Source of the DNA: Candidatus Parcubacteria bacterium
Lineage (GTDB): Bacteria; Patescibacteriota; Minisyncoccia; JAHIHE01; JAGLIN01
Assembly: GCA_023132875.1 (NCBI GenBank)
Contig: JAGLXN010000017.1
Span: 22,142-86,141 of the forward strand
Direction of reading: 5' to 3'
DNA: 64,000 nucleotides
The translations under genes and the position numbers were made by a program. Every line of letters starts with the position of its first letter. Position 1 is the first letter of the stretch. Below the pieces are notes generated by a model. The model had not been told where the DNA came from. It did not search any database and saw only the letters and a list, made by a program, of their open reading frames with translations. This document shows positions 18,682-62,118 of this stretch, piece after piece.

Positions 18682-19035
18682 TTAAATAAACTTATTTATA
18701 AGTGCTCCAAATACTATAAGCGCTAAAGCGAAAATAAGCGAAAATAGTTTATTTATATTATGTTTAAAAACATCACGATCTGTTTCTTTTATTAAGTTTT
18801 TTAGCCCACCTTTTATTTTTAAATCTTTTTCAATTAACAATAAAAAAGTATCTGAAATCATCTCCCTCATTTTTGTTGCTTTTTCTGCTGTTTCACAAAG
18901 CGTGTCTGCTATTTTTTCGTTATTTCCAAACTTATCTTCTAATTGCTCAATCCTTTTCTTAACATTAATAATATCCTCACCATGTTTATCAAGGGATGTT
19001 GTTAGTTTATCTGGATCAAAATCATTCTTGGCCAT
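18682..19035 (-). CDS. Hypothetical tail-anchored protein
   Basis: 117 aa with a C-terminal TM segment. Confidence 0.4.
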   Translation of the reverse strand: MAKNDFDPDKLTTSLDKHGEDIINVKKRIEQLEDKFGNNEKIADTLCETAEKATKMREMISDTFLLLIEKDLKIKGGLKNLIKETDRDVFKHNINKLFSLIFALALIVFGALINKFI

Positions 19036-45612: not shown

Positions 45613-46805
45613 ATAATTTTAGTCACAACTCCTGCTCCAACAGTTCTTCCGCCTTCTCTGATCGCGAATCTCATCCCATCTTCCATGGCCACATTTGAAA
45701 TTAATTTAATAGTCAATTTTACAGTATCGCCTGGCATAACCATTTCTGTTCCTTCAGGTAAAACCACATCTCCTGTCACATCAGTTGTTCTTATGTAAAA
45801 TTGCGGTTTATATCCTGAGAAAAATGGAGTATGTCTTCCACCTTCTTCTTTTGTTAGAATATATACTTCGCTTTCAAACTCTGAATGAGGAGTAATTGAT
45901 CCGGTAGCAGCCAAAACCTGTCCCCTTTCAACCTCTTCTTTTTTAATGCCTCTAAGCAGAACGCCCGCATTGTCTCCAGCCTGACCTTTGTCCAGCTGTT
46001 TATTGAACATTTCAACTCCCGTCACAACTACCTTTTTTGTATCTTTAATTCCAACGAGTTCTACTTCTTCATTTACATTAACAACTCCTCTTTCAATCCT
46101 TCCGGTAACAACGGTTCCTCTTCCTTCAATTGAAAATATATCTTCAATAGGCATCAAAAACGGCTTTTCAATATCTCGTTTCGGTTCTGGAATCTTTTCA
46201 TCAAGAGCTTTAACAATTTCTAGAATAGGATTACATTTTTCGCATTCTGCTTTTCCACAAGAACATTCAAGGGCCTGAAGAGCGGATCCTCGGACAATAG
46301 CAGTATTTTCTCCGTCAAATTCATATTTTGTTAATAATTCTCTAATTTCTTCCTCAACAAGATCAATTAGTTCCGCGTCATCAACTTGATCAACTTTATT
46401 TATAAAAACAACAATTTCAGGAACGCCAACTTGTCTGGCAAGCAAAATATGCTCTCTTGTTTGAGGCATAGGACCATCAGTCGCGGCAACAACAAGAATA
46501 GCGCCGTCCATCTGAGCAGCGCCAGTAATCATGTTCTTGATATAATCAGCATGTCCCGGACAGTCCACATGAGCATAATGCCTTGTATCTGACTCATATT
46601 CCTGATGAGAAGTAGCAATCGTAATGCCTCTTTCTTTTTCTTCAGGTGCGCTATCAATTTCGCCAACACCTTTTTTTGAAGCGTTCTTACCAGACGCGGC
46701 CAAGCAAGCAAGCATAGCTGCTGTTAGAGTCGTTTTGCCATGATCAACATGACCAATTGTTCCTACATTAATATGTGGTTTTGATCTATCAAATACTTCT
46801 GCCAT
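45606..46805 (-). CDS. tuf: Elongation factor Tu, with a CxC-x4-C-x2-C insertion in domain I
   Basis: [10 protein letters not shown]-loop, [12 protein letters not shown]; unusual [11 protein letters not shown] segment. Confidence 0.9.
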
Positions 46806-47164
46806 TTTATAAGTCTCCTTTTAAAAACTAAGATTAGAAAGCTTATTACTCTTGAAACTTAGTTTATAAGATTAATTTTTAAAAATTAGATACTTTAAGT
46901 TAAATTTTAAACAACATATACATATTAGCACATACAAAAAATTTGGCAAGTGCTTAGGGCTTAAGTAAAAATAACTCATTCACTTCACATTCAAATTCAC
47001 ACCATCTAAACTTTTAAAAATTTTCAAAATAGCTTGCTATTCTTCAATTTTTTAAAAGCTTATCTATCGCAAATTTAAACGCGAATTAAACAACTTATTT
47101 TTACTTAAGTCCTTAGATTTATTATCTAAATTATAATACACATTATTAATACTTTTGTCAAATA

Positions 47165-47482
47165 TTATAGCTTCTCAACCACAATTTCATTATTTATTCC
47201 CTTTTTACTATTTTTTTCTTTAAAATCATCAAAATCATTTTTAATCTCAAACTGTTTTAACTTTCTTTCATTTTGTCTAGTTTTCCAAATTTCAACATCT
47301 TTATTTACCTTCTCTTCTACCTTTTTTCCGGGATTAGCAACGGCATGGTCAATCTTATCAAAATTAATATATTCATCAATATCTATAATCACAAAAACCG
47401 GCTCTCCGTCTTCAACTATAATAGCCTTTCCTCCAATGATCTTTATAAGCTTTTTTATTTTATCAAAACTGTTTTCAGTCAT
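47165..47482 (-). CDS. Hypothetical protein
   Basis: 105-aa ORF. Confidence 0.4.
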   Translation of the reverse strand: MTENSFDKIKKLIKIIGGKAIIVEDGEPVFVIIDIDEYINFDKIDHAVANPGKKVEEKVNKDVEIWKTRQNERKLKQFEIKNDFDDFKEKNSKKGINNEIVVEKL

Positions 47483-47837
47483 ATTATAATTTCTAAAATA
47501 ATTTTAATTGCTTAAGCACTTATACAGACTAGCACAAATATTTTTTCTGTCAACCCCGCTTCTAAATTTTACAAAATAGTATAACGAGAGTAAACTATCT
47601 CAAGTAATTAAGATAATTGGTATTAATCAAACGGTTATGTAAAATTTAGAACGGGGTTAAGTGTTTTTATCAGAATTTTATTAGACCAAGACAGACTCTT
47701 AAAAAAAGAGAAAATTATATAGCTTCGCTTTTATAAAAAATCTGTTTAACAGCTAAATTGCGTATGCGCAAAAGGCTTAACTCAGAAGAATGGAACCAAT
47801 ATTATAGTATATAAAACCTATTCAATACCACAAAAAA

Positions 47838-49811
47838 CTATCTAACATTTTCCCCTTTTAAATATAAGCCCAATTCATAGTCCGTAACAATTATTATATC
47901 TTCCCATTTATAGCCGTTGGAGATAAATACATCGGCGCTTGTTATCCATCTTTTATTTCCGTTTTCTATTAAATATACTTTGGGATCGGAGCCTTTTAAA
48001 AGTTTTTTGTCAAAATTGAAATCAGAACTTGTAACATCTTTTCCGTTTGAATACGAATTCAATTCATAATCCGTAACAATTATTATGTCTTCCCATTTAT
48101 AGCCATTTGAAATAAACACGGCAGGGCTTGTTATCCATCTTTTATTTTCGTTTTCTATTAAATACACTTCAGGACTTGATCCTTTTATTAAACTCCCGTC
48201 TGGCTTTAAATCAAAACTTGCTTTTATATTTTCTCCGTTGGGATATAATTCAAGCTCTAAATCTGTAACAATTACTATATCTTCCCATTTATAGCCATTT
48301 GAAATAAACACGGCAGGGCTTGTTATCCATCTTTTATTTTCGTTTTCTATTAAATAGACCCTGCTATCTTTCAGCGATTTTAGAAGAGAATCATTTTTAT
48401 ATTTATTGCTTTTAGCAATTTCTGCAGAAATAGAAAAAGAATATTTATTAATATTATTTCCAAAACCGGAAGTTTTTTTATGGCTTATTGGAATTATTGT
48501 AACAGAAGAGATATTTCTGTCCGAGCAGGAAACATAAAAATCAGAATTTTGCTTATCGTCCAAATTCAATTCGCCGATTTTTTTTGTTCCGTCCTCATAA
48601 GATATAACATAAGAAACAGAAAATTGCCCTATATCTTGTCCGTCAAAATTAATTTTAATTTTATTTTCATTTGCGCAATTTTTTTCCGCTATATCAAGTT
48701 CATAATATCCATTACTCCAATCTTTAATAGAATCATTTATATTTATTGTAACGACGGAGTTTAATTCATAAACATCTTTTGGCTGGATGTGAAAATTTTC
48801 ATAATTAAGATTTTTATTTTGATAGCTATATTTGCTATCCAATGATGTTCCGTTTATATAATTAGTTATAACCCAGTCTTTAAATACAGATTGAAAGGTG
48901 TCATTTTTATAATATAAATCTGATAACGCCTTATTAATGCTTTGAATTCCAACTTTATTATTATCTACCATTCTTTTAAATATTTCTTTCCCGAAACGAT
49001 CGGCTAAGTACTGGGAAAATAAGTTAACGGAAGAATAATCGTATATTTTATTCTGCCACTCCGTAAGCGAATCAACCGGATCAATTTCAAAATTTTTAAC
49101 TCTTGCCCTTAAATTGCTGCCCATATAATCATCGTCATAGCCTATCGCCGTAGAAGCATATTCCGACCTTGCTTCATTCAGCCATATATCGTCTGTAATA
49201 TTTCTTAATTTAGTTTTATGATACCAAGTGATCATATGCTGAAATTCATGCGCGAGAAAACTTTTTATTCTATTATCGCCTATAAAAGATATATTCAAAT
49301 AAACCATCTCTCTTTCGTTGCTTCTTTCGCCGGCTACTTCATCTTTTCTGTATTCATCGCTTGGATTGAAATATCCCCCGATATTTTCTTTTGTCTTTGT
49401 AAAAAGAATTGTAATTTTGCTGTCATTGTCAATCCCTGGATTCCATTCATATCCAAATGCTTCTCTTGTTTTTGGGTACACCGTATTGTCAAAATCTAAA
49501 ACTAAAGAATTTAAATGCGAATTAAATTCTAATTTGGAATTTCTTGATAAATTATTATAATAATCGTCTTCAACATAAAAATATGCGTTTACTCCGATTT
49601 TTTTTAAAGTCGCCGTTATTTCCAAACGCTCGCTGGAATCATAAGAAAGATCAACTAAAAATACTTTATTTTCTTCAAGCTCATTCGCTTTTGCGCTTGG
49701 AATTGCAGTTAATGAAATAATAAATAATAAAACAATACAAAAAAACAGCTTTAATCCTAAAACCGCCAACTCACCCCTCCTGTTAATATTTCTATTTTTT
49801 ATAAATCTCAT
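47838..49811 (-). CDS. Secreted/membrane-anchored putative zinc metalloprotease (HExxH) with three C-terminal tandem repeats of about 62 aa
   Basis: N-terminal hydrophobic anchor; HEFQHMITWYH motif; 3 x VYLIENxNKRWITSxxVFISNGYKWEDIxIVTDxEL. Confidence 0.6.
   Translation of the reverse strand: MRFIKNRNINRRGELAVLGLKLFFCIVLLFIISLTAIPSAKANELEENKVFLVDLSYDSSERLEITATLKKIGVNAYFYVEDDYYNNLSRNSKLEFNSHLNSLVLDFDNTVYPKTREAFGYEWNPGIDNDSKITILFTKTKENIGGYFNPSDEYRKDEVAGERSNEREMVYLNISFIGDNRIKSFLAHEFQHMITWYHKTKLRNITDDIWLNEARSEYASTAIGYDDDYMGSNLRARVKNFEIDPVDSLTEWQNKIYDYSSVNLFSQYLADRFGKEIFKRMVDNNKVGIQSINKALSDLYYKNDTFQSVFKDWVITNYINGTSLDSKYSYQNKNLNYENFHIQPKDVYELNSVVTININDSIKDWSNGYYELDIAEKNCANENKIKINFDGQDIGQFSVSYVISYEDGTKKIGELNLDDKQNSDFYVSCSDRNISSVTIIPISHKKTSGFGNNINKYSFSISAEIAKSNKYKNDSLLKSLKDSRVYLIENENKRWITSPAVFISNGYKWEDIVIVTDLELELYPNGENIKASFDLKPDGSLIKGSSPEVYLIENENKRWITSPAVFISNGYKWEDIIIVTDYELNSYSNGKDVTSSDFNFDKKLLKGSDPKVYLIENGNKRWITSADVFISNGYKWEDIIIVTDYELGLYLKGENVR
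47871..48360. repeat. Three tandem direct repeats of about 188 bp (high nucleotide identity) encoding the C-terminal protein repeats
   Basis: CAATTCATAGTCCGTAACAATTATTATATCTTCCCATTTATAGCC ... recurs at about 47871, 48058 and 48249. Confidence 0.8.
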
Positions 49812-50037
49812 CTATTTTTTATTTTTTGAGACATTTAGAAGTATAGTGTCTTTCAATGCGACCGCATGGAAAAATGCTATATCTAATTTTTATTCATTTT
49901 CATTTCTAACAATCTTGATAAAGAAGGATATTTATAAATAACTTTTGTTTTTAAGTAAACTTTTTTCGTATCTTCAAATGTAAACTTTTGCGGTTTCATA
50001 ATTCATTATTCATTATTCTAAATTCAAGATTCAATCA

Positions 50038-50113
50038 TGGAGCGGGTAACGGGAATCGAACCCGTGTCTTCAGCTTGGAAGGCTGACATAATAAGCCACT
50101 ATACGATACCCGC
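50038..50113 (-). tRNA. tRNA-Gly (anticodon UCC), CCA encoded
   Basis: Manual fold: acceptor GCGGGTA/TACCCGC, anticodon stem TCAGC/GCTGA with loop CTTCCAA, T-arm ACGGG-TTCGATT-CCCGT, 3' CCA. Confidence 0.85.
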
Positions 50114-50184
50114 GGACACCTGTCTATTATAACAAATATATAGAAATTATCAATACGCCCAAAACAATTAAATGTAGATATCGA

Positions 50185-50305
50185 TTCTATGGACAATTTT
50201 CAATTTTCAATTTCTAATTTTTATTGAATTTCTAATTTCTTAATGATTAAATCCAAAACTCAAAGCACCAAATTCCAAATAAATTCAAACATCAAAATTC
50301 TAAAC
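50185..50305. repeat. Degenerate heptamer array (CAATTTT x2, CAATTTC, TAATTTT ...) between tRNA-Gly and the ATPase gene
   Basis: Seen directly. Confidence 0.5.
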
Positions 50306-50442
50306 TATTAAGACTTGCGCGTTTCACAATTCGGAGCGTCCTAACTATTTTAAACTTTGTTTTGAATTTGTTATTTTGGTCATTGTAATTTATTTGTTAT
50401 TTGTGATTTTGAATTTATGATTTATCCAGTTGTTTAAAAATT

Positions 50443-50512
50443 TAGTCATTGGAAATTGATTGTCAACCCAAGGCTGATCCGCCTCGGGCGGAAAAATTAA
50501 AAATTTTATAAT
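50443..50512. mobile_element. Repeat family A copy (TTTAGTCATTGGAAATTGATTG-TCAACCCAAGGCTGATCCGCCTCGGGCGG-AAAAATTAAAAATT) downstream of the ATPase gene
   Basis: About 70-nt match to 36546..36615. Confidence 0.65.
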
Positions 50513-50533
50513 GAGCTAACACTTACTTTTTGT

Positions 50534-53047
50534 TTATAAATTTTGTTTTCTAATGTTGCTCTGAACTGTTGGCTTTACCCTAACCTCCGATCTTTCCAAT
50601 ATCTCCCTCTCTATAATTTCTCTATTTTTGCCAAATTTCAGAGTTGAAAGCTGTTTTATGGCTTCTGCAACTTCCGCGCTTCCTTTTTGCGGCGGATAGG
50701 TTGCCATATTAAATCCTTGGCTTATTGTGCCTCTTATCATCATCTTAATATAAGCGTTAAAATTATCAATATTTATCAGATCCTGTTCGTTAAAAACAGG
50801 CTTGAATTGTTTTGCCATAAACTCAGCGTCTTCCGGTCCAATTCGAAAAGAAATCATTGTTCCAACATTTCCAAATACAGATTTTTGTATTTCTTCAGGA
50901 AGCTGTCCCAAGAACTGATGAGCAATATTCAGCGATAGCCTGTATTTTCTCGCTTCTGAAAGAATTGTTGAGATGCTGTCAGTCGTGAAATTCTGAAATT
51001 CGTCAATATAGAAATAAAAATCTTTTCTTTCTTCCTGAGGCATATCAGTTCTACTGAGCGATGCGACTAAAATTTTTCCAACTATCACAAGACCAAGCAA
51101 ATAGGCGTTCATTTCTCCGATCTTTCCTTTTGAAAGATTGACAAGCAGAATTTTTTTGTTATCCATAATTTCCCTGAAATTGATAGAGCTTTTCTGCTGT
51201 CCGATAATAGGACGCATCGTATCATTAGAAATAAATTGTGTCAGCTTGCTTGTTATATAAGGAACCATATTAGCCAGCGCGGCTTCTCCTCCAGCCTTTT
51301 GAGCTTCTTTTTCCCAGAAATTTTTCACGGTAAAGTTTTCACATTTTGACAATTTGTATTTTCTAAATTCTTCATCGGCAAGCACTTTTGAAATTTCAAT
51401 TAAAGTCGAGCCTGACGCTGGATCATCCATAATTAAAAGCATCGCATTTCTCATATATTGCTCAAACATAGGACCGCCTGTTGCTTTTAAGTCATAAAGC
51501 TTGTCAAATATCTTTATCATTTCATTTATAACGAAAGTTTTTTGTTCCGGATAATTTTCATCATATTCAAGAAGATTTAATCCCATTGGTTTTTGAACAT
51601 TTGACGGATCAAACAGGACCACGTCTTCGGCACGCTCTTTCGGCACGCAGCCTAAAGCGTCTTCCACAAGATCGCCATGCGGATCAATAACGCAGAGCCC
51701 TTCTCCATTTTGTATATCCTGCCTTATTAACTCTCCTAAAAATCCAGATTTACCCGTTCCAGTTTGTCCAATTATATACATATGCCTTCTGCGGTCTTCT
51801 TTCTCTATTTTAATTATTCTATCTTCTCCTCTATGCGTATTATGCCCCAAAATTAAGCCTTCATTTGGAATATCAGAAGGCGCGGAAGCTTGTTTTGCTT
51901 TCAGCCATTTTACTTGCGGAGTAGCGGTCGTAGAAATTGGAAAATGAAACAAACTTGCCAGTTCCTCCGTATTTAAAATTATTTTTCTTTTCTTTTCAAA
52001 ATTTCTAAATATAAAATTATATATGGTTCTGTTTAAAAACCCCGCTTTATTTAAAAATGTTTCTTTAACATTTAGCGAATTAGAATCCGGCAAATTAAAC
52101 TGAGAAAAAGAATTTTCAAGCTCTTTTAACAGAGTTTCGGCTTTTTCTTTTGTTCCAGCTGAAGTAACAAGGCGCACATTGATTTCAAAGCCAATTTTGG
52201 TTGATTTTGCCTCTACCGCTTTCATAACTTCTTCCTGCGATGGCGTTAAATTTACTTTTACCTCCTCTTTTTGCTGATCTTCCGCTGATTTTCCTCCCGC
52301 GCTTATTATTCCTATAAATTCTTTTAATACTTTAACTGGCAAAGAAGGTTTTCCCTGTTCGCCGAATCCTTTGCCTTTTTGCATTAGTTTCATTCTTTCT
52401 TTACTCTCGCTCTGCCAAGAATTGCCGGATGGTTTTATCACAAATTGGAGAGCCGCTCCTTCTCCGATTGGAATCTTGCTAAGCGCGTTTGTCATGCTTG
52501 AAAGCGGATCGGCTTCAAGATGCTGATATGTTTTTATCGGAAAAATGTCATTTCTTTTTAGCATCATATATGAAGCCGCTGATCCTCCATCTGGCACAAA
52601 AATATTATAGTCTTCTATCTGCGTTATTTCCGCGTCGGCATAAAAACTGTGAATTTGTTTTTCTATGATAGATTGAAATTTTTTTGGAACCGAAACATAG
52701 AAAAATATCTCATTGCTGTCAATCGGAGTGGCAATTTCAAAAGACAAATAAAATGGACCATAAATGATTTTCTTAAGCATTTCTTCCCTGATATTGCTCA
52801 AGCTCGCGAAAAGCTGCTCCATTACGGAAATATTCTCTTTTTCTTTTTCGCTTTTATTTTGCGGCTGATCTTCTATTATTCTTGGAACAGAGACTTGCAA
52901 CACGATCATATTAAGAGATCTTGTGATTTTTCCAGTGCTAGAAAGCCTCATTTTTACATAAATAAACACAACTATAAAAATGACCAGTGCGATTGCAAGA
53001 TCTAAAAGACCAATTTCGATTATATAATTGCTTATAAATAGTTCCAT
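50534..53047 (-). CDS. Membrane-anchored VirB4/VirD4(TraG)-family type IV secretion/conjugation-like AAA ATPase
   Basis: N-terminal TM; Walker A IIGQTGTGKSGF; DPHGD; Walker B FYFYIDEFQNF; C-terminal ARKYRLSLNIAHQFLGQL resembles the T4CP/VirB4 C-terminal Q-x-x-x-Q motif. Confidence 0.65.
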   Translation of the reverse strand: MELFISNYIIEIGLLDLAIALVIFIVVFIYVKMRLSSTGKITRSLNMIVLQVSVPRIIEDQPQNKSEKEKENISVMEQLFASLSNIREEMLKKIIYGPFYLSFEIATPIDSNEIFFYVSVPKKFQSIIEKQIHSFYADAEITQIEDYNIFVPDGGSAASYMMLKRNDIFPIKTYQHLEADPLSSMTNALSKIPIGEGAALQFVIKPSGNSWQSESKERMKLMQKGKGFGEQGKPSLPVKVLKEFIGIISAGGKSAEDQQKEEVKVNLTPSQEEVMKAVEAKSTKIGFEINVRLVTSAGTKEKAETLLKELENSFSQFNLPDSNSLNVKETFLNKAGFLNRTIYNFIFRNFEKKRKIILNTEELASLFHFPISTTATPQVKWLKAKQASAPSDIPNEGLILGHNTHRGEDRIIKIEKEDRRRHMYIIGQTGTGKSGFLGELIRQDIQNGEGLCVIDPHGDLVEDALGCVPKERAEDVVLFDPSNVQKPMGLNLLEYDENYPEQKTFVINEMIKIFDKLYDLKATGGPMFEQYMRNAMLLIMDDPASGSTLIEISKVLADEEFRKYKLSKCENFTVKNFWEKEAQKAGGEAALANMVPYITSKLTQFISNDTMRPIIGQQKSSINFREIMDNKKILLVNLSKGKIGEMNAYLLGLVIVGKILVASLSRTDMPQEERKDFYFYIDEFQNFTTDSISTILSEARKYRLSLNIAHQFLGQLPEEIQKSVFGNVGTMISFRIGPEDAEFMAKQFKPVFNEQDLINIDNFNAYIKMMIRGTISQGFNMATYPPQKGSAEVAEAIKQLSTLKFGKNREIIEREILERSEVRVKPTVQSNIRKQNL

Positions 53048-53293
53048 AATAAATTAATTTTATAATTTTTAAATTTTTAAATTTTTAAAATAAATCTTAA
53101 TTTTTAATTTTTAAACACGAAATTAAAATGTTTATTAAATTAAGTAACAGATTAGATATAGCAATTTAAAGATCTTGAACTAAATTCAGAGCCTGTCCTG
53201 AATTCAGTTCAGGAATGACGGATGCTTCGCATCTCGTAATTAAAAATTTAGTCATTAAAAATTATTTAAAAATTATAAAATTTAAAAATTCTA

Positions 53294-53728
53294 TCATATA
53301 TCTTTCAGCTTCCCTTTTTTCACAAGCTCCTCATGAAGTTCCCCTATCAGCCTGTCATGCAGTTCATCCAAAAGATAAGCGTCATTTAAGCTTCTCGCGA
53401 CTTTTATGCTATGGCTTATACCTTTTTCAAACGCTAAAACCGCGAGTTTTTTCACTTGTCCCGCTGTATCTAAGTTTTTTAATTCTTCTATATCCTTTTT
53501 AAAATTCTTTTTATCTTCTTTATCAGCAACTATTGTTTGCGCCTGTGTAGAGCTTGGAACTGTCGGCAAAGATTGCTCTTGGATATTCTCTTTTGTTATT
53601 TCCGCCTCTTTTATTTCAATCCCAGAACCTTCCGCTTCAATTCCAAGAGCCGCCTTTTTCTTAGAAAGTTCTTTCTCTAATTTTTCAATTTCTTGAATAT
53701 TAGGATTTTCATTATTTATTTCAGACAT
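53294..53728 (-). CDS. Hypothetical acidic protein
   Basis: 144-aa ORF. Confidence 0.4.
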   Translation of the reverse strand: MSEINNENPNIQEIEKLEKELSKKKAALGIEAEGSGIEIKEAEITKENIQEQSLPTVPSSTQAQTIVADKEDKKNFKKDIEELKNLDTAGQVKKLAVLAFEKGISHSIKVARSLNDAYLLDELHDRLIGELHEELVKKGKLKDI

Positions 53729-53763
53729 AGTTTTAAAAGTTTAAAGTTTATAAAGTTCATAAT

Positions 53764-54918
53764 TTATTTGCTTTCCTGACCATATTTATAATCCGAAAAA
53801 AACCACGCCCAATCTGGGACTTTCCCAGTTCCGGTAATCCAAGCCATAAAACCGTCTCTTTTTTTTTCATCTATCAAAGTATATCCAGCCATAAGACATC
53901 CTATTATCGCGGCTGATTTGACGGCGCCGGCAAGTTTAAGCATAATTCCGGTTTCCGCTATCACTTCAGCGGCTGGTGCCGCCAAAGAAACAAATCCTAC
54001 CGCCAAGGCAATGAGAGTCGCGTATTTCAATAATTCCGGATGGTCTTTAAGAAATTTAAGAAATTTTTCAAGCAAATCGCCTTCTTCTTCGCCAAGCCTT
54101 TCTAGTCCCTTATCAAAAAACAAAGCTGCCTTTTCAAGATTTTCAATTTCCACAATGCAGTAAGCATGATTCTCAAGCAGTTTATCGGGATTATCAAGCT
54201 TAGCTTCTATATATTCAAGTTTTCTAAGATCTATTTCATTTTTAATGACTGTCGAAAGAGATCCGAGAATTCCCATTAATTCTTCTTTTTCGTCTTTTTC
54301 AAGTAGATTGCAGACTTCGTTCTGACTCAAAAGATTTTTAAATTTTTCTTCCATATCTTTATATTTTTCAGTGCTTTCCTTAACAGCCTTTTTAATTTCT
54401 TTTTTCTTTTTCGCAACCTCAATCCTTGATTCTTCAATCTCTCTTTTTCCTTTTTTGAATTCAAACCTTTCTTTAAATTCAAGATCTTTCTCTTCAATGG
54501 CATCTTCTTTTTTTTCATCATCTTTCGTCTCCCACTCAGCAATTCTCCTATTATTCTTTATATCTTTCTCTACCGCCATCCCAATTTCTTCCACTATTTT
54601 TTCTTCCTTAGACGTTAATTTCTCTTTGTTATCTCCCATCATCTTACTGAGTATTTCTTTATGATCTTCTTCCGATATTTCTGTTTCAAAATCAGACAGA
54701 TTTTCCTCGCTGTCTCTAACGTTTTTTCTTCCTTCTTTTATGATTTCATCAGCTTTAGGATTACCCTGTTCTTCTTCTAAAATTTCTTCAATATTTTTTT
54801 GACTTTCATTTACATTGCATGAATCAGATTTAATTTGAGTTTCTATATCTTCAGCTGTTTGATTTTCCGCGCCTTGCTCTGATGCTGTTTCTAACAGTTT
54901 TTTATCTGGATTTTTCAT
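53764..54918 (-). CDS. Hypothetical Glu/Lys-rich protein with C-terminal two-helix hydrophobic hairpin
   Basis: 384 aa; C-terminus ...LIALAVGFVSLAAPAA...AAIIGCLMAGYTLI. Confidence 0.45.
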   Translation of the reverse strand: MKNPDKKLLETASEQGAENQTAEDIETQIKSDSCNVNESQKNIEEILEEEQGNPKADEIIKEGRKNVRDSEENLSDFETEISEEDHKEILSKMMGDNKEKLTSKEEKIVEEIGMAVEKDIKNNRRIAEWETKDDEKKEDAIEEKDLEFKERFEFKKGKREIEESRIEVAKKKKEIKKAVKESTEKYKDMEEKFKNLLSQNEVCNLLEKDEKEELMGILGSLSTVIKNEIDLRKLEYIEAKLDNPDKLLENHAYCIVEIENLEKAALFFDKGLERLGEEEGDLLEKFLKFLKDHPELLKYATLIALAVGFVSLAAPAAEVIAETGIMLKLAGAVKSAAIIGCLMAGYTLIDEKKRDGFMAWITGTGKVPDWAWFFSDYKYGQESK

Positions 54919-54927
54919 AGTTTTATA

Positions 54928-55122
54928 TTAAAATTTTTTAATTTTATCTCTCGCTTCTTTTATCTTTTTTTTATTAATCAGATTTATCGCTCTTTCAATT
55001 AATTTTGACTGTTTTCTGATTAAAACAAGCATTTTAGAGTGAAATTCATTAAACAGCTTATTCAGCTTTTCATTTTTCCTCTTATCACTGTCTGATTTAT
55101 TGTCCATTTTGATATAATTCAA
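54928..55122 (-). CDS. Hypothetical small basic protein
   Basis: 64-aa ORF. Confidence 0.3.
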   Translation of the reverse strand: MNYIKMDNKSDSDKRKNEKLNKLFNEFHSKMLVLIRKQSKLIERAINLINKKKIKEARDKIKKF

Positions 55123-55128
55123 AGTTTT

Positions 55129-55440
55129 TTATGCTTCAATTTTTAATTTGATATCTAATAATTCGTCCTTGGTTATTTTTACTTCTTCGTCAAAGATTTT
55201 CTTTGCGTCAGGATTTTTCGCAATCAAAAATTCTTCCATTTTTTCAAGATCGTTTTTAGAAACCGCCTCAAACTCCGTGATTTCCTCCTCGCTGAAGTTT
55301 TCCATAATTTTCGCTCCGGCTCTCTCACTTATAAGCTCCAATACTTTTGTCAAAACTTCATTTTTATTTTCTTCCGGCATTGAATCCAAATTAAGAGATT
55401 CAATCAGATATTTTGTTGTTTTTTCATCAATTAGTTTCAT
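55129..55440 (-). CDS. Hypothetical small acidic protein
   Basis: 103-aa ORF. Confidence 0.35.
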   Translation of the reverse strand: MKLIDEKTTKYLIESLNLDSMPEENKNEVLTKVLELISERAGAKIMENFSEEEITEFEAVSKNDLEKMEEFLIAKNPDAKKIFDEEVKITKDELLDIKLKIEA

Positions 55441-55464
55441 ATATGCAATTTATATTATTAGAAA

Positions 55465-58400
55465 TTATTTTTTCGTTTTCACATCTTCAATAATATTTTT
55501 TAGATCAATTATTGATAAATCTTTGTCTTTATTTAAAATATTTTCTATTATCTGTCTATGTTTTTCGTTATTAATTTTATCTTTAATTTCAACAACTTTT
55601 AGTAATTTTTGATTATCTGACGAAACTTTGTTTAATTTCAATTCTAATATTTTTATAATTTTGTCAAGATCTTTTGTTTTTACACCATTTGATAAAAGTA
55701 TTCTTGATATTTCTAATTTTTTTGCAGTTTCAATTTCAACTTGATTATCTTCTGTCTCATCATTTTGATCTGAATCAAGATTATCTCTATAAGTTTTTAA
55801 TTCATCATAAATTTCTTTTACCTCTTTAACTGCCAGATCTTTAATTCCTTCTTTTTCTAATAATTCTTTTAATTTTTTATTATTAATACTGTCTTCCATG
55901 CCATTCTTAATAAGTTTACCAATTTTTTCGCCCTCATTAACAAAACTTGCAAAACCAACCAACGCGCCTAATTCTTGAACTGCTTTTTCGTCATTTTTTA
56001 GTTGTTCTATTATTTCTATCTTAAATTTATTAGAATCGCTATCTTGCTGTTCGTTAGTTTGATTTTCATTAGTTCTTATAGATTCTCCTTTATCTCTAAT
56101 CTTCTCTTTAAAGATATCTTCAACTTTACTGAGCATTTTATTTAGATATTCTTTTGGATTATTCAGATCATCAGGAAGTTTTTCAATTTTTATTCTTGAT
56201 TTTTCAAAAAATAATTCAATATTTCTACGCTTATTTTCAATATCATCTTCAGCATTTATTCTTCTAAGAACATTTTTAATATTTATTGTGTAAGCATCTT
56301 TTATTATTTCTTCGGTTTTATTGTTAAAATCAGGAGAAAGACAATGAATATCTTCTAGCACTGTTTCAAATTCATTCGCCAATCCTTGTTCTGAAATTGA
56401 ATTTAAATCTTTTCTCTTTCCTCTGCTGAACATTTCATTTACTCCAGATATTGTTTTTACTTTTTCTGCTTTTTCCTTCTTTTTAAATGGATCTTTTAAT
56501 CTTTCTCTAACAGCATTTTTAACGGCATTCCCCAATTTTCCGACAGACGGAAATGTTCTTCTTTGCTTTTTGCTTTTTTGCATCTTCATCTCTAGTCCCA
56601 TTTTCAACATTTTAGTCGCGTTTAAAAGCGCAAAGCTATCTTCGCATCGTTCTCGCGCTCCTAAAATACCTTCTTTTACGGATTTTCCGATTTCTTCTTC
56701 TAAACTGCGAACATGATCTGTAAATATAGCAGAGCTCTCATCTAACACTATTCCTATTTCCAATTCTTCAATTCTTTCTATTATTTTTCTTTCTTCGTCC
56801 GTTAAATCTTCCCACGGAATAGAAAGTATGTCTTTATTTTCTTTTCTTAATTTTTCTATTTCAATCGTCTTTCTTAAAGATTCCTTCCTGGCTTCGTTTA
56901 ATTCAAATTTTTTAGGTTCTTTGATTTTATCTTTCGCCGGTTTTTCTCCTGTTTTATCTTCTTCCGGTTTGTCTTCTTGCGATCCCTCCTTAATTTTCTT
57001 CGCGCTTATCAATAAGCCTAAATATTCTTCAAATTCTTGATATTTATCTATTTTAGAAATATCTGCACTTCTACCGTCAGCTTCTTTCTCAATATCTTCT
57101 AAATATTTTTTAATCTTTTCTATTTCCTTGTCCAATTTTTCAGGGCTCATTTGTCTAACGTCTTCTTCACTTTCAGTATTTGGAATTTTTTCAAGTATCT
57201 CTGGCTGTTCTGTTTGGACTGCTTGATTTTTTTCAACAGCAACATTAATGCCATTTTCTTTAAAATCTATATCGATATCATAATAAATTTCATTTTCATA
57301 ATATAAACAAACCAAAACAGAATCTTCGGACTTTTTATGCACATTAAATGCTTTTAAAGAATCTGGCAAATTATAATCTGAACCTATCTCCTCATAAAGA
57401 ATAGTAAGCGCAGTTTTCCAATTACTTTCTATTTTTTCTCCTTTTTCCTCGTTTAAAAAAGATCTCATTTTTTCAAGCCGTTCTCTTTCTAATTCATAAT
57501 ATTTTTCATTATTGTTTTCTGAACCTTCTAAAATTCCTTCTGCTTCTATAGACTGTACTCCGCTTCCTTTTTCTATTTTATCCAAAAGTTCGTCAAATAA
57601 TCCCATAATAATATCATTTATTCTTTTTCTGTTTTCTTTGTTATCTTCAAGCTTAAAGTCTTCAAGTATACTCTTAATATCTTCGTCAATGCTATTTTTA
57701 ACAGATTCTCTAGCTTTTTCTTTTCCCTCGTTTTCATAAACTTCTCTTAATGAACTTCCATCTTCAAATTCTTCCTCTACAGCACCTTTTATAGAGTCCT
57801 CTAAATTTTTCCAATTTTTCTCAATATCTTCTTCTTCGGTTTTTGCAATTATAGTTTTAGGTTTTTCTTGTTCTATTTCTTTAGTTTTTTCAATACTCTC
57901 AAATTTACCCTCCAATTCACTTAAAATCCCATATCCAATCACCTTGTATGATGTTAAAATTTCGTTCTTATTTTCTCTGCTTTTTATTTTGAAATTAAAA
58001 CTGTCAAGCAATTCTTTGTCTTTAGGATCCATATTTTCAATAGTAAGATCTCGAATCTTATTTTTGATTTTTTTAGTATATGATTTTTTGTCACTACTTT
58101 TTTCATATTCTTCTTTCAATATTTCATAAACATTATCTTTAAGCTCATCCCATTTTTCTTCTTCTATTTCATTTTCTGTTTCATTAATTACCGGTCTGTT
58201 TTCTGGTCCTGTTTTTTCTTCTTCTGGTTCCTGAACCGATTTTACATCTTCTGGTTCTGTTGTTTCTTCTTCTAAAGAATCTTTTTCATCAAAAATGCCG
58301 CTACTTTCTTCTAGCGCTCTAATCTCTTTTTCAATCTCTTCTATTCGTTTTCCTGTTATCTCTTTTAAACTGGGACTACCAAGTTCCTCTTTTTCTCTAC

Positions 58401-58836
58401 GCAATTTAGCAAGATCACGGTTTAATTGTTTTAATTTTTCTTCCTTTCTCTCATTTTCTATTTCCAGTTCTTGAACTGATTCTATATTTTTCGGTTCTGT
58501 TTTTTCAGTTTCTACTTCTGGTTGCTCTGTTGATTCATTTGTTGTCACGCTTTTTATATTTCCATTAGAAAACTTTTCCTTCGCCTCGTTTATTTTAATA
58601 ATTCTTTCTGTTTTTAATGTTTCTATTCCTTTCGCCCAGCCTTTTGGTGTTTTTTCTCTTAAATCATCAATTCTTTCATCATATGATTTATTAATTTCAT
58701 ATAATTCTCTATTTAGCTCCTCGGCTTGTTTCGTTTTTATTGTTTCCTTACCTGAAAATTTCTTTTGTAAATCTGAAATATCAAATGTTTTTTCTTTTTT
58801 AGTTTTTCTGGCTGTTTCAAATTGATTTCTTCCCAT
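55465..58836 (-). CDS. Giant (1123 aa) Glu/Lys-rich coiled-coil protein, no signal peptide
   Basis: Continuous ORF with low-complexity heptad-like E/K composition. Confidence 0.5.
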   Translation of the reverse strand: MGRNQFETARKTKKEKTFDISDLQKKFSGKETIKTKQAEELNRELYEINKSYDERIDDLREKTPKGWAKGIETLKTERIIKINEAKEKFSNGNIKSVTTNESTEQPEVETEKTEPKNIESVQELEIENERKEEKLKQLNRDLAKLRREKEELGSPSLKEITGKRIEEIEKEIRALEESSGIFDEKDSLEEETTEPEDVKSVQEPEEEKTGPENRPVINETENEIEEEKWDELKDNVYEILKEEYEKSSDKKSYTKKIKNKIRDLTIENMDPKDKELLDSFNFKIKSRENKNEILTSYKVIGYGILSELEGKFESIEKTKEIEQEKPKTIIAKTEEEDIEKNWKNLEDSIKGAVEEEFEDGSSLREVYENEGKEKARESVKNSIDEDIKSILEDFKLEDNKENRKRINDIIMGLFDELLDKIEKGSGVQSIEAEGILEGSENNNEKYYELERERLEKMRSFLNEEKGEKIESNWKTALTILYEEIGSDYNLPDSLKAFNVHKKSEDSVLVCLYYENEIYYDIDIDFKENGINVAVEKNQAVQTEQPEILEKIPNTESEEDVRQMSPEKLDKEIEKIKKYLEDIEKEADGRSADISKIDKYQEFEEYLGLLISAKKIKEGSQEDKPEEDKTGEKPAKDKIKEPKKFELNEARKESLRKTIEIEKLRKENKDILSIPWEDLTDEERKIIERIEELEIGIVLDESSAIFTDHVRSLEEEIGKSVKEGILGARERCEDSFALLNATKMLKMGLEMKMQKSKKQRRTFPSVGKLGNAVKNAVRERLKDPFKKKEKAEKVKTISGVNEMFSRGKRKDLNSISEQGLANEFETVLEDIHCLSPDFNNKTEEIIKDAYTINIKNVLRRINAEDDIENKRRNIELFFEKSRIKIEKLPDDLNNPKEYLNKMLSKVEDIFKEKIRDKGESIRTNENQTNEQQDSDSNKFKIEIIEQLKNDEKAVQELGALVGFASFVNEGEKIGKLIKNGMEDSINNKKLKELLEKEGIKDLAVKEVKEIYDELKTYRDNLDSDQNDETEDNQVEIETAKKLEISRILLSNGVKTKDLDKIIKILELKLNKVSSDNQKLLKVVEIKDKINNEKHRQIIENILNKDKDLSIIDLKNIIEDVKTKK

Positions 58837-60045: not shown

Positions 60046-60729
60046 TCAAAGAGATCTGTCAGTTTTGCTTGCTGAAGGCGAAGGTGTGTTTCTTAAATCT
60101 GATCCTTTGCTTTTGTACTTATATGGATTACTTTGTCCTGTTATCCCTCTTTTAAGCTTATCAATATCTCTTTTTCCAAATTCTTTTCTCATTTTTTTTA
60201 TGTCAATTCCTTCTTCTGTTACTTTTTTAAATTTAGTTCCTGTAAATCTTTTACTTTTAAATCTTCTTGTAAATTCATCAAAATCCTTCTTTTTTAAAAC
60301 TGACTTTGTCGGATTATAAGCCTTTACGGCTCTTAAGAAGTCCATTTTTTTCTTCAAAGAAACTCCGTGCACTTTATGTAAGGCTTTTTCCATCTTCTTT
60401 GTTCCGCTTAAGCCAAAATCATTAAGCCTGTTATGCCTGAAAACTTTTAATTTATGATCATAGGTTTTTTTCTTTACCATGATTAGCTGGCCGCCTATCA
60501 TTTTTTGTTCTTGTTCGCTTTCTTTCTCCGGCTTTTTTTCTTTTTCCCTATCTTTTCTTGATCTCTCTACTGCTTCTTTTTTTCTTTCTTCATATTCTTC
60601 CCTCTCTTTTTCTAATCTATCTATTTCTTTTTGAAATTCTTTATTTTCCCTGTCCATTTTATTACTATTTTCTTCCTGACTTTCTATTCCACTATCGCTT
60701 TGTTCATTTTTTTTATCATCATCATCCAT
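60046..60729 (-). CDS. Hypothetical Glu/Lys-rich protein with basic C-terminus
   Basis: 227-aa ORF. Confidence 0.4.
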   Translation of the reverse strand: MDDDDKKNEQSDSGIESQEENSNKMDRENKEFQKEIDRLEKEREEYEERKKEAVERSRKDREKEKKPEKESEQEQKMIGGQLIMVKKKTYDHKLKVFRHNRLNDFGLSGTKKMEKALHKVHGVSLKKKMDFLRAVKAYNPTKSVLKKKDFDEFTRRFKSKRFTGTKFKKVTEEGIDIKKMRKEFGKRDIDKLKRGITGQSNPYKYKSKGSDLRNTPSPSASKTDRSL

Positions 60730-60856
60730 ATTTTTAATCTAAGCTATATTTAAGGCTAATTTCTATTAAATTATACCATTTATGGAGAAAAACGGCAATA
60801 GCAAATCATATAAACATTTGAACATATCTGAATGATAACTCATTGTTCCAAAGAAT

Positions 60857-61032
60857 TGTCATTCTGAACTCGTTTCAGAATCTTTCTGTTGCTACATTGA
60901 ACAATCCTATAAAGCATCAAACGCTTTACTAAATTGAAAATACAATAATTGTAATATGATTCTTGGCGTTGTTGCAAATAGGATAAATTATACCTAACAG
61001 AAAATAGATTCTGAAACAAGTTCAGAATGACA
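60857..61032. mobile_element. 176-bp MITE-like element flanked by inverted family-B hairpins (TGTCATTCTGAACTCGTTTCAGAATC ... GATTCTGAAACAAGTTCAGAATGACA)
   Basis: Both terminal hairpins seen directly in opposite orientation. Confidence 0.6.
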
Positions 61033-61050
61033 AAGCTAAATTAATTCATC

Positions 61051-62118
61051 CTATAATTCAATTTCACAGCAAAACTTTTTTAACGCTTCTTCTGAATAAT
61101 ATTTCAGCAATAATTTATTATACCATAAATCAAAAACATACTCTTGATTAGTTTTAGAAATAGCTCGTCCTTCTTTCTCTGAAAGTTCAAAATTAATTTT
61201 AGCCGCCGGAAAATCTTCAACTTTGAGTATTTCCAATCTCAGAGGTAAATTTTTACTAATTTTTCGAAGCTCAAACAAAAAACTTTCCAGTTTTTCTTTC
61301 GCTATTTTTTTATCATAGACATAAGCTGGAACATAAGCATAAAAATCAGCGCCCAAATCAATTAAAAATTTTGCGGCTTCAAACTGATTTTTATAAAACT
61401 TTTCTTTTGCCCCTGTTATCAGGCTAAAATCCTCTTTTACTGTTCCTTTAAAACATCCTACGATCCCGACATTTTTTTGGCTTAAAACTTTTTCAAGTTC
61501 ATTTTTTTGTTCTTTCATAATTTCTATGGCGGATAAATTCGTATCAATCCACAAATACGAGTCTTCAGATTTTTTCATCATCTCATTATAAAGATCAATA
61601 ACAATTTCAGGAATAATCATGCACTCTCCCCCGCTTATTCTTATTACATTCATTGCCTCTTTTGAATCTTTTTTTATTCTTAAAAATTCTTCAACGATTT
61701 CTTTAGCGCTGAAAAATCTTCCGTATCTTTTATCCGCCGAATTAAGTTCGCGAGGAACAAAACAATAGTTGCACGAATAATTGCATCCCGCGACTTGCAT
61801 CGTGAAAACTTTGCTAAATTCCGCAAGGCTTCTTTTTAGATTATAAGCTGCTGAATATGTCGGGTTTTGGAATTCAGTTCTTTTAAATCCATTCTTTCTC
61901 AGCCCCAAAAATTTATCAGACCATTTTTTCTTTTCGCTTGCCTTGACCCATCCCGGTTTATCAATATAATCTTTATATCTGAAATAATCAGTAAGAACTT
62001 TCCGTTCTCCCGGATCCTGCCCCGCTCCGCCAATTTTTGCAAGCAGATATTTATTATCTCTTATTAATTTTTTTCTGAGCATTCGCGCTCTTTGGCTTGG
62101 GTTAAACATAAAAATCAT
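61051..62118 (-). CDS. Radical SAM enzyme of unknown specificity with about 100-aa N-terminal extension
   Basis: CNYSCNYCF (CxxxCxxC) and ISGGE SAM-binding motif; the true start may be the second ATG (62109). Confidence 0.65.
   Translation of the reverse strand: MIFMFNPSQRARMLRKKLIRDNKYLLAKIGGAGQDPGERKVLTDYFRYKDYIDKPGWVKASEKKKWSDKFLGLRKNGFKRTEFQNPTYSAAYNLKRSLAEFSKVFTMQVAGCNYSCNYCFVPRELNSADKRYGRFFSAKEIVEEFLRIKKDSKEAMNVIRISGGECMIIPEIVIDLYNEMMKKSEDSYLWIDTNLSAIEIMKEQKNELEKVLSQKNVGIVGCFKGTVKEDFSLITGAKEKFYKNQFEAAKFLIDLGADFYAYVPAYVYDKKIAKEKLESFLFELRKISKNLPLRLEILKVEDFPAAKINFELSEKEGRAISKTNQEYVFDLWYNKLLLKYYSEEALKKFCCEIEL

What the first reader, a model, noticed from the sequence alone, without database searches (positions are those of the whole stretch)
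47838..49811. Secreted HExxH metalloprotease with three near-identical tandem repeats of about 188 bp (about 62 aa)
The repeats VYLIENxNKRWITSxxVFISNGYKWEDIxIVTDxEL are about 90% identical at the DNA level, which implies very recent duplication or concerted evolution. They may be envelope- or host-binding modules. The catalytic region has HEFQHMITWYH, and the N-terminus is a signal anchor. The gene lies between tuf and the tRNA-Gly island, so it is a candidate surface or host-interaction factor.
Basis: seen in the sequence. Interest (0 to 1): 0.5.

Follow-up and report, generated by a model that had tools for sequence, protein, structure and literature searches.

The report
Wall-tethered M30 zinc protease of a CPR bacterium
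This gene from an ultra-small Parcubacteria (CPR) bacterium encodes a secreted zinc protease of the staphylococcal hyicolysin/lugdulysin (M30) type, fused to three copies of a widespread, uncatalogued module that otherwise sits mostly on cell-wall-cutting enzymes and probably tethers the protease to peptidoglycan.

The parts
47838..49811 (-). Whole gene (657 codons plus stop): pre-protein of a secreted M30-type zinc metallopeptidase with three C-terminal repeats
   Evidence: ORF listing. A 100% identical protein, P0001, is annotated 'hypothetical protein KAT63_02000 [Candidatus Parcubacteria bacterium]'.
49686..49811 (-). Signal sequence, aa 1-42: basic n-region, hydrophobic helix at aa 16-34, P38, A40-K41-A42 then N43. 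Probably cleaved by signal peptidase I; an uncleaved anchor is not excluded.
   Evidence: Sequence. AF2 predicts a helix at 16-34 with low pLDDT around it. A42 is conserved in at least 90% of the family and the family consensus reads AxA. Cleavage is inferred.
48777..49685 (-). Catalytic domain, aa 43-345, gluzincin fold of peptidase family M30 (hyicolysin/lugdulysin)
49236..49250 (-). HEFQH, aa 188-192: two zinc-ligand histidines and the catalytic glutamate
   Evidence: HE[FL]QH in all 120 listed homologs. H188, E189, Q191 and H192 are invariant in A1. Aligns with HEYQH of lugdulysin.
49173..49184 (-). WLNE, aa 210-213: E213 is the presumed third zinc ligand (gluzincin Glu helix)
   Evidence: W210, N212 and E213 are invariant. 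Aligns with WLNEA of lugdulysin. The ligand role is inferred from the gluzincin pattern.
48414..48776 (-). Beta-sandwich domain, aa 346-466, resembling PPC, collagen-binding and GOLD domains
48204..48395 (-). Repeat 1, aa 473-536
   Evidence: hmmsearch with repeat profile A2, domain E 1.4e-28. Fold of strands plus two short helices.
48015..48203 (-). Repeat 2, aa 537-599
   Evidence: Domain E 8.7e-30.
47841..48014 (-). Repeat 3, aa 600-657, ending at the C-terminus
   Evidence: Domain E 8.3e-28.
48280..48356 (-). 77-nt tract in R1 that is identical to 48088-48164 in R2: a footprint of recent gene conversion
   Evidence: Longest exact run is 77 nt. 25 of 26 codons are identical against 14.4 expected. 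R1 and R2 share derived E..SP codons that are absent from the 89%-identical ortholog L001.
48088..48164 (-). Partner 77-nt tract in R2
50534..53047 (-). Context, functional link inferred only: 837-aa T4SS coupling-protein-like ATPase immediately upstream (apart from the tRNA). It is conserved upstream of the protease gene in orthologous loci.
   Evidence: Pfam DUF87, TrwB_AAD_bind and TraG-D_C. Same position in L001, L003, L005 and L006. 75% identical to the L003 protein.
53294..58836 (-). Context: conserved upstream genes of unknown function (144 aa, 384 aa, DUF5663 of 103 aa, 1123 aa) that travel with the ATPase and the protease gene

Best explanation
The gene encodes a Sec-exported zinc endopeptidase of the M30 (hyicolysin/lugdulysin) lineage. 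After export, and probably cleavage after A42, a thermolysin-like catalytic domain would hydrolyse peptide bonds outside the cell. Zinc would be held by H188, H192 and E213, with E189 as general base. A PPC/collagen-binding-like beta-sandwich follows. Three EccB-repeat/PlyCB-like modules at the C-terminus would hold the enzyme on peptidoglycan. These are the same modules that CPR bacteria attach to SpoIID, amidase, glucosaminidase, CHAP and M23 wall hydrolases. The wall they bind could be the cell's own or that of a host cell.

In many relatives the gene forms an apparent operon with a giant Amidase_2+SpoIID hydrolase carrying about seven of the same modules and with T4SS pilin genes, downstream of a T4CP-like ATPase. 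The most likely role is therefore proteolysis at the wall, alongside wall-cutting enzymes of a T4SS-like envelope apparatus. In this genome that linkage is half broken.

The three repeats are an old triplication whose cores are kept alike by recurrent gene conversion.

Shown here: the fold, the motifs, homology to M30, the distribution and domain partners of the repeat, gene order, and the conversion footprints. Inferred: secretion and cleavage, catalytic activity, peptidoglycan binding, substrate, and cooperation with the neighbouring genes.
For: Catalytic domain:
- AF2 model with pLDDT 88.6.
- Profile A1 finds lugdulysin at E 2.5e-20, aligning HEFQH with HEYQH, WLNEA with WLNEA, GGYF with GGYF and SN with SN.
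- HE[FL]QH in 120 of 120 listed homologs; H188, E189, H192, W210, N212, E213, D258 and Y259 are invariant.

Export: hydrophobic helix plus a conserved AxA.

Repeats:
- Separate model with pLDDT 90.7.
- EccB1 repeats are described as a 4-stranded sheet plus 2 helices, similar to PlyCB (PMC4769845).
- 9,428 representative proteins carry the module.
- Of 59 scanned, 20 have SpoIID, 19 Amidase_2, 3 Glucosaminidase, 1 CHAP and 1 M23. Three hit the EccB models over exactly the repeat-2 region (Pfam best E 8.8e-17, NCBIfam 2.6e-19).

Context:
- The order M30, then Amidase_2+SpoIID, then T4SS_pilin, then GT2 occurs in L003, L005, L006 and L007, with genes co-directional and overlapping by 8 nt in L007.
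- The L003 and L005 hydrolases carry about 7 repeat copies.
- The T4CP-like ATPase cluster lies upstream in the window, L001, L003, L005 and L006.

Gene conversion.
Against: - No biochemical evidence exists for this family; every member is annotated 'hypothetical'.
- Pfam Peptidase_M30 does not detect the window protein even at E<=10, and reaches only 7 of 77 relatives below threshold.
- The window's own repeats do not hit the EccB models; the link runs through other members of the repeat family.
- The hydrolase/pilin linkage is absent from the window and from the more distant orthologs L004, L008 and L009. The protease therefore does not depend on those neighbours.
- The loci that do share the linkage are related to each other, so they are not fully independent observations.
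- The repeat also sits on non-wall enzymes (S8 proteases, a nuclease, a CAP domain), so it could bind another envelope polymer.
Confidence: 0.7

Rival explanations
1. It is a general nutrient-scavenging exoprotease. The wall-tethered M30 enzyme digests environmental or host proteins to feed an amino-acid-auxotrophic CPR cell. Adjacency to hydrolase and pilin genes is coincidental clustering of envelope genes.
For: Characterised M30 enzymes are broad secreted neutral proteases (established knowledge; 7bb8 is deposited as 'Neutral metalloprotease'). The gene occurs without T4SS-like neighbours in L004, L008 and L009, and without the hydrolase in this window. A PPC-like sandwich is common in secreted degradative proteases.
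Against: The gene pair M30 then Amidase_2+SpoIID is tight, co-directional and sometimes overlapping, and it persists down to 43% identity. The pair shares a targeting module that is otherwise mostly on wall hydrolases. These point to a wall-focused rather than a bulk-feeding role.
Confidence: 0.2
2. It is a dedicated maturation or assembly protease of the T4SS-like apparatus. It processes the T4SS pilins or activates the giant hydrolase at the wall, and the repeats co-localise enzyme and substrate.
For: It sits between the T4CP-like ATPase and the hydrolase and pilin genes in L003, L005 and L006, and next to the hydrolase and pilin in L007. Protease and hydrolase carry the same repeats.
Against: The window genome keeps the protease but has no hydrolase, pilin or GT2 within 64 kb. 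Distant orthologs sit next to MurB and polysaccharide-synthesis genes instead. No known T4SS uses an M30 protease, and the survey of Patescibacteria T4SS does not list one.
Confidence: 0.12
3. It is a catalytically inactive adhesin: the HExxH domain is a degenerate scaffold and the protein only binds surfaces.
For: None specific. Pfam M30 fails to recognise it.
Against: All zinc-binding and catalytic residues are invariant across relatives down to 36% identity. The active-site helices are modelled with pLDDT above 90.
Confidence: 0.03
4. One reading: the three repeats arose by very recent duplication.
For: High DNA identity of the cores (82-93%) and a 77-nt exact tract.
Against: Two or three copies are present in all 109 full-length homologs. 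152 of 168 repeats are closest to the same-position repeat of another protein. Linkers are only 43-60% identical. Other lineages have repeats only 41-54% identical at DNA level (L004).
Confidence: 0.02

Closest known systems
Lugdulysin (Staphylococcus lugdunensis) and hyicolysin ShpII (S. hyicus), MEROPS family M30, PDB 7bb8
   Different: Only 25% identical, and below the reach of Pfam PF10460. It carries an extra beta-sandwich and three wall-module repeats that the solved staphylococcal chain does not cover. It comes from CPR/Patescibacteria rather than Firmicutes. No long propeptide is evident between the signal sequence and the catalytic domain.
EccB repeat domains of mycobacterial type VII secretion (PDB 3x3m; Pfam PF05108, NCBIfam TIGR03919)
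   Different: Here the module is a free-standing tandem repeat fused to enzymes, not four repeats packed around a core domain behind a membrane anchor. The window's own copies do not reach the EccB models. There is no T7SS context.
PlyCB and the cell-wall-binding domains of the enterococcal phage lysins LysIME-EF1 and Lys170
   Different: No detectable sequence similarity. Those domains act as oligomeric rings of separate subunits, whereas here three copies lie in one chain. Binding is unproven here.
Multidomain peptidoglycan hydrolases of monoderm T4SS (PrgK, TraG, VirB1-like) and the Patescibacteria T4SS (PMC12102498)
   Same: The neighbourhood in orthologs combines a T4CP-like ATPase, a large wall hydrolase and T4SS pilins, as in monoderm conjugation-type systems.
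   Different: The protein studied here is a protease, not a glycosidase or amidase. No virB4 was seen next to it. That paper does not report an M30 protease as a component.

Membership tests
Peptidase family M30 (hyicolysin/lugdulysin), clan MA gluzincins | HExxH motif plus a downstream Glu as third zinc ligand on the next helix | tested here: met
   HEFQH at 188-192 and WLNE with E213. All are invariant in 77 aligned relatives, and HE[FL]QH occurs in 120 of 120 listed homologs.
Peptidase family M30 (hyicolysin/lugdulysin), clan MA gluzincins | Significant sequence homology to a characterised M30 peptidase unit | tested here: met
   hmmsearch of family profile A1 against PDB sequences finds 7bb8 lugdulysin at E 2.5e-20 and 75 bits, covering profile positions 35-309. 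The single-sequence phmmer search found nothing.
Peptidase family M30 (hyicolysin/lugdulysin), clan MA gluzincins | Same three-dimensional fold as a solved M30 enzyme, clearly better than other MA families | tested here: met
Peptidase family M30 (hyicolysin/lugdulysin), clan MA gluzincins | Match to Pfam PF10460 Peptidase_M30 at its gathering score | tested here: not met
   The window protein has no hit at E<=10. Only 7 of 77 relatives hit, with a best E of 2.6e-4. Comparable weak hits go to DUF2268 and Peptidase_MA_2. It is therefore a divergent subfamily outside the curated model.
Peptidase family M30 (hyicolysin/lugdulysin), clan MA gluzincins | Zinc-dependent endopeptidase activity | not testable with these tools
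   Needs purified protein.
EccB-repeat / PlyCB-like wall-binding module | Module of about 55-60 aa with a small antiparallel sheet and two short helices | tested here: met
EccB-repeat / PlyCB-like wall-binding module | Sequence match to the EccB family models | tested here: inconclusive
   The window protein does not hit PF05108 or TIGR03919. Three of 59 proteins that match the repeat profile strongly do hit them, over model positions about 178-249 (best E 8.8e-17 and 2.6e-19; P0127 scores 39.3 bits against a cut-off of 27). The link is transitive.
EccB-repeat / PlyCB-like wall-binding module | Binds peptidoglycan or another wall polymer | not testable with these tools
   Support is by association only. 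SpoIID occurs in 20 of 59 proteins, Amidase_2 in 19, with Glucosaminidase, CHAP and M23 also among the partners. Binding is unproven for EccB1 itself.
Component of a T4SS-like gene cluster | Conserved adjacency to T4SS genes (ATPase, pilin, wall hydrolase) | tested here: inconclusive
   The T4CP-like ATPase lies upstream in the window and in L001, L003, L005 and L006. Hydrolase and pilins lie downstream in L003, L005, L006 and L007. Neither is present in L004, L008 or L009. Hydrolase and pilins are absent from the window. No virB4 was looked for systematically.
PPC / collagen-binding-domain-like beta-sandwich | Beta-sandwich of about 100-120 aa following a secreted protease domain | tested here: met

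The most novel reading that the evidence does not exclude
The M30 protease, the giant Amidase_2+SpoIID hydrolase with the same repeats, the T4SS pilins and the T4CP-like ATPase cluster may together form a CPR-specific envelope-breaching machine. In it, a protease would be an integral, wall-docked component, which no described T4SS has. It could clear wall-linked proteins or peptide stems, of the cell itself or of its host, for pilus passage or for DNA and nutrient uptake. As a corollary, the repeat would be a true peptidoglycan-binding domain. That would give the first functional assignment to the EccB repeats of type VII secretion systems.
Probability: 0.15. Interest if true: 0.75.

Novelty: new variant of a known kind. 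Interest (0 to 1): 0.5.

Why it matters
CPR/Patescibacteria have the lowest annotation coverage of any bacterial phylum. This work turns more than 1,200 'hypothetical proteins' into a recognisable M30 protease subfamily.

It also defines a very common tandem module: at least 9,428 cluster representatives at 50% identity. The module has no Pfam or NCBIfam model of its own, is homologous to the EccB repeats of type VII secretion, and marks extracytoplasmic enzymes, most of them wall hydrolases.

That association is indirect but new support for the untested idea that EccB repeats bind peptidoglycan.

The conserved pairing of the protease with a repeat-bearing Amidase_2+SpoIID hydrolase and T4SS pilins gives concrete candidates for how these epibionts remodel or breach cell walls.

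The repeats are also a clean small example of tract-limited gene conversion inside an old protein repeat.

Tried and rejected
- Pfam scan of the protein at E<=10 gave only noise (Phage_CI_C, SCP2_2).
- phmmer of the protein against PDB sequences found nothing.
- The search for homologous proteins with the repeat profile returned only 6 short fragments, apparently because of how candidates are chosen. That search was wasted.
- The repeat profile A2 and the 17-repeat protein P0127 found nothing credible against PDB sequences.
- The AFDB50 fold library was not available.
- The BFVD viral fold search gave mainly uncharacterised actinophage proteins (best E 1.6e-7) and only weak lysin, CHAP and amidase hits, so it is suggestive but not decisive.
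- PADLOC has no defence-system match for the protease or its small neighbours. The ATPase gives only HerA/mad8-type P-loop hits.
- The listing of cluster members gave no taxonomy or names for repeat-bearing proteins.
- The structural paper on lugdulysin is not in the paper library. The hits only cite the name, and these papers were not opened. M30 biochemistry therefore rests on general knowledge and the PDB title.
- No terminator-like sites occur around the gene, so the transcription unit is undefined.
- A beta-propeller or CWB2/choline-binding-type repeat was considered and rejected, because the fold is mixed alpha/beta.
- A first DNA identity matrix was off by one codon in R1. It was redone anchored on the VYLI motif.
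Full report
**1. The observation**

The window has about 31% G+C. The region holds a 657-codon ORF on the minus strand at 47838-49811. A 100% identical protein is in public data as 'hypothetical protein KAT63_02000 [Candidatus Parcubacteria bacterium]' on an 831-kb contig, so the source is a CPR/Patescibacteria genome.

HEFQHMITWYH is present, with HEFQH at aa 188-192. The N-terminus has a basic stretch, a hydrophobic helix at aa 16-34, and A40-K41-A42 followed by N43.

Three tandem repeats are real. TRF reports period 189, 2.5 copies and 82% matches. The repeat finder reports three copies spaced 189 and 192 nt apart. VYLIEN occurs at aa 485, 549 and 612.

The '~90% identical' figure is true only of a core of about 105-111 nt: 90-93% for R1/R2, 82-85% for R1/R3 and 86-89% for R2/R3. 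Whole units are 70-77% identical and the linkers 43-60%.

ARAGORN finds one tRNA-Gly(UCC) at 50038-50113 and only one other tRNA in the 64 kb, so there is no tRNA-Gly island.

**2. The catalytic half**

Pfam gives nothing for this protein. NCBIfam gives only a weak match to 'MXAN_6640 family putative metalloprotease': E 7.7e-6 and 25.8 bits against a cut-off of 140.

The protein belongs to a large family. 1,268 proteins reach E<=1e-3 among the 8,000 candidates scored. The 120 best are listed; where a source names them they are 'hypothetical protein' from Parcubacteria, Andersenbacteria, Pacebacteria, Falkowbacteria, Minisyncoccia or 'Patescibacteria group', and almost none has a Pfam domain.

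HE[FL]QH occurs in all 120 listed members. In a 77-sequence alignment (A1, identities to the query down to 36%), the invariant residues include H188, E189, Q191, H192, W210, N212, E213, S164, N165, D258 and Y259.

An AlphaFold2 model built on A1 is confident: mean pLDDT 88.6 and pTM 0.74.

Homology also shows at sequence level once the family profile is used. A1 against PDB sequences finds 7bb8 at E 2.5e-20. The alignment pairs HEFQH with HEYQH, WLNEA with WLNEA, GGYF with GGYF and the SN motif.

Pfam's Peptidase_M30 model reaches only 7 of 77 family members, all below threshold. Comparable weak hits go to DUF2268 and Peptidase_MA_2.

I therefore file the domain as a divergent subfamily of M30 (clan MA gluzincin). 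By the gluzincin pattern, H188, H192 and E213 are the zinc ligands and E189 the general base. That assignment is inferred; activity was not tested.

**3. Export and the middle domain**

The family consensus keeps an AxA just after the hydrophobic segment, and A42 is conserved in at least 90% of members. This fits cleavage by signal peptidase I. An uncleaved anchor cannot be excluded without a dedicated predictor or experiment.

The catalytic domain starts only a few residues later, so no long propeptide is apparent.

**4. The repeats as a protein module**

A separate model of aa 468-657 is confident, with pLDDT 90.7. Each unit is a small sheet with two short helices.

An exhaustive HMM search with a 60-sequence repeat profile (A2) against 1.84 billion cluster representatives finds 9,428 proteins at E<=1e-3 and 967 at E<=1e-30. 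Copy number reaches 17 per protein, and protein lengths range from 223 to 3,254 aa. Only 3 of 146 top hits contain HExxH, so the module is promiscuous.

Pfam scans of 59 of these proteins show its partners:
- SpoIID in 20 and Amidase_2 in 19.
- Glucosaminidase in 3, CHAP in 1 and M23 in 1.
- Peptidase_S8 in 3, and single cases of a nuclease, a CAP domain, cohesin or Ig domains.

No Pfam or NCBIfam model covers the repeat as such. The only models that touch it are the EccB families. PF05108 hits 3 members (best E 8.8e-17; P0127 scores 39.3 bits against a cut-off of 27; model positions 184-249). TIGR03919 has a best E of 2.6e-19 over positions 178-246. That region matches EccB1 repeat R2, residues 185-241, in the paper.

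The module is therefore homologous to the EccB repeat, and its domain partners are mostly peptidoglycan hydrolases. The best inference is that it targets enzymes to the wall. Binding itself is not shown.

**5. Gene neighbourhood**

In the window the gene is flanked as follows. Upstream are tRNA-Gly and an 837-aa ATPase with DUF87, TrwB_AAD_bind and TraG-D_C domains, which is T4SS coupling-protein-like. Further upstream are ORFs of 144 and 384 aa, a DUF5663 protein and a 1,123-aa protein. Downstream are a 105-aa ORF, tuf and the S10 ribosomal operon.

The same upstream block precedes the orthologs in L001 (89% identical protein), L003 (53%), L005 (55%) and L006 (56%).

In L003, L005, L006 and L007 (43%), the protease gene is followed immediately and co-directionally by a 1,006-1,063-aa Amidase_2+SpoIID protein. 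One to four T4SS_pilin genes and a GT2 glycosyltransferase come next. In L007 the protease and hydrolase genes overlap by 8 nt.

A local hmmsearch shows that the L003 and L005 hydrolases carry about seven copies of the same repeat.

In the window the hydrolase, pilins and GT2 are absent. tblastn with the L003 proteins finds only the ATPase (75% identity), the 143-aa protein (59%), DUF5663 (47%) and a weak match to the 546-aa protein. The hydrolase query cross-hits only the protease's repeats.

More distant orthologs (37-40%) lie in other envelope-related or unrelated contexts. L004 and L008 have Bac_transf, then M30, then MurB. L009 is different again.

A recent survey of Patescibacteria T4SS reports thousands of VirD4-like T4CP genes, mostly away from virB4. 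It notes that other wall enzymes may replace VirB1. It does not mention an M30 protease (PMC12102498).

The link to a T4SS-like apparatus is thus a conserved-neighbourhood inference within one part of the family. It is not a demonstrated dependence.

**6. Age of the repeats and concerted evolution**

Among 109 full-length homologs, 65 have three copies and 44 have two.

Using whole units, 152 of 168 repeats have their nearest neighbour at the same position in another protein. Only 8 have it in the same protein. The triplication is therefore old, and 'very recent duplication' is rejected.

Within-protein identity nevertheless ranges from about 26% to 89% across the three-repeat members of the family. 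At DNA level the 105-nt cores tell a different story from the linkers:
- In the window, paralogous identities (0.85-0.93) equal the orthologous identities to L001 (0.89-0.92).
- Against L005, every window repeat is 0.70-0.72 identical to every L005 repeat, whatever the position.
- L005 R1 and R2 are 100% identical.
- L003 R2 and R3 are 0.87 identical.
- L004 repeats are only 0.41-0.54 identical to each other.

Window R1 and R2 share a 77-nt exact tract. 25 of 26 codons are identical where 14.4 are expected from local codon usage, and the probability that all are identical is 1.4e-8. They also share derived codons (E..SP) that are absent from the 89%-identical ortholog. This places a conversion event after that split.

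Concerted evolution by short-tract gene conversion of the cores is therefore supported. It is recurrent and specific to individual lineages.

**7. Most likely mechanism, and rivals**

The best reading (confidence about 0.7) is a Sec-exported M30 zinc endopeptidase held at the wall by three EccB/PlyCB-like modules. It would act beside wall hydrolases that use the same modules, in many lineages as part of a T4CP, hydrolase and pilin gene cluster.

The substrate is unknown. Candidates are wall-associated or host-surface proteins, peptide stems, or the co-encoded pilins or hydrolase.

Rivals:
- A plain nutrient-scavenging exoprotease (about 0.2). This is compatible with the fold and with the loci that lack T4SS genes.
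- A dedicated maturation protease of the apparatus (about 0.12).
- An inactive adhesin (about 0.03), contradicted by the invariant active site.

These readings differ mainly in substrate and overlap with the main statement.

**8. Novelty and score**

The catalytic fold belongs to a known family, so nothing here is categorically new. What is new:
- A large CPR subfamily of M30 that curated models miss.
- The architecture of M30, beta-sandwich and two or three wall modules.
- Recognition that the repeat is a very abundant module without a model of its own, homologous to EccB repeats and associated with peptidoglycan hydrolases.
- The conserved pairing with a repeat-bearing Amidase_2+SpoIID hydrolase and T4SS pilins.

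I rate it a new variant of a known kind, with interest 0.5.

Noticed in passing
window 50534-58836 (minus strand): A block of five genes: a T4SS coupling-protein-like ATPase (837 aa; DUF87, TrwB_AAD_bind, TraG-D_C), ORFs of 144 and 384 aa with no family, a DUF5663 protein (103 aa) and a 1,123-aa protein with no family. The block is conserved in L001, L003, L005 and L006. No virB4 was seen beside it.
   Followed up: partly
L003 8998-13596; L005 9010-12656; L006 8926-12703; L007 8943-12319: Giant Amidase_2+SpoIID proteins of 1,006-1,063 aa, followed by one to four T4SS_pilin genes and a GT2. The L003 and L005 proteins were checked and carry about seven copies of the same repeat. This unit is missing from the 64-kb window.
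   Followed up: partly
window 47165-47482 (minus strand): A 105-aa ORF between the protease gene and tuf, conserved at the same place and length in L001 and L002. It has no Pfam or PADLOC hit and was not characterised.
   Followed up: no
window 50126-50153 (minus strand): A near-consensus promoter-like site (TTGATA, 16-nt spacer, TATAAT, with TG extension; 11 of 12 matches) just upstream of the single tRNA-Gly(UCC). No terminator-like hairpins occur anywhere in 46800-50600.
   Followed up: no
window about 18000-19000: GC skew and AT skew change sign here: cumulative GC skew peaks near 18 kb. This coincides with the switch from plus-strand to minus-strand genes. It could be a replication origin or terminus, or simply a gene-orientation effect.
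   Followed up: no
proteins P0114, P0116, P0117 (family members, 36-37% identical): Variants in which an IPT/TIG domain (PF01833) sits in the C-terminal region, where the first repeat aligns poorly. This shows module swapping at the C-terminus of the family.
   Followed up: no
repeat-bearing proteins among P0127-P0195: Three subtilase (S8) proteins that carry the EccB-like repeat have the type VII secretion-associated protease mycosin as their best NCBIfam hit (E 2.9e-66). This is a second T7SS-flavoured combination, a mycosin-like protease with an EccB-like repeat, outside any known T7SS.
   Followed up: no
window 60046-62118 compared with L003, L005, L006, L007: A radical-SAM gene (61051-62118) and an adjacent 227-aa ORF (60046-60729, no Pfam hit) lie upstream of the ATPase cluster in the window. 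In the orthologous loci, radical-SAM and Memo/LigB genes lie downstream of the pilin/GT2 unit on the opposite strand. This suggests a rearrangement that removed the hydrolase/pilin unit from this position.
   Followed up: no
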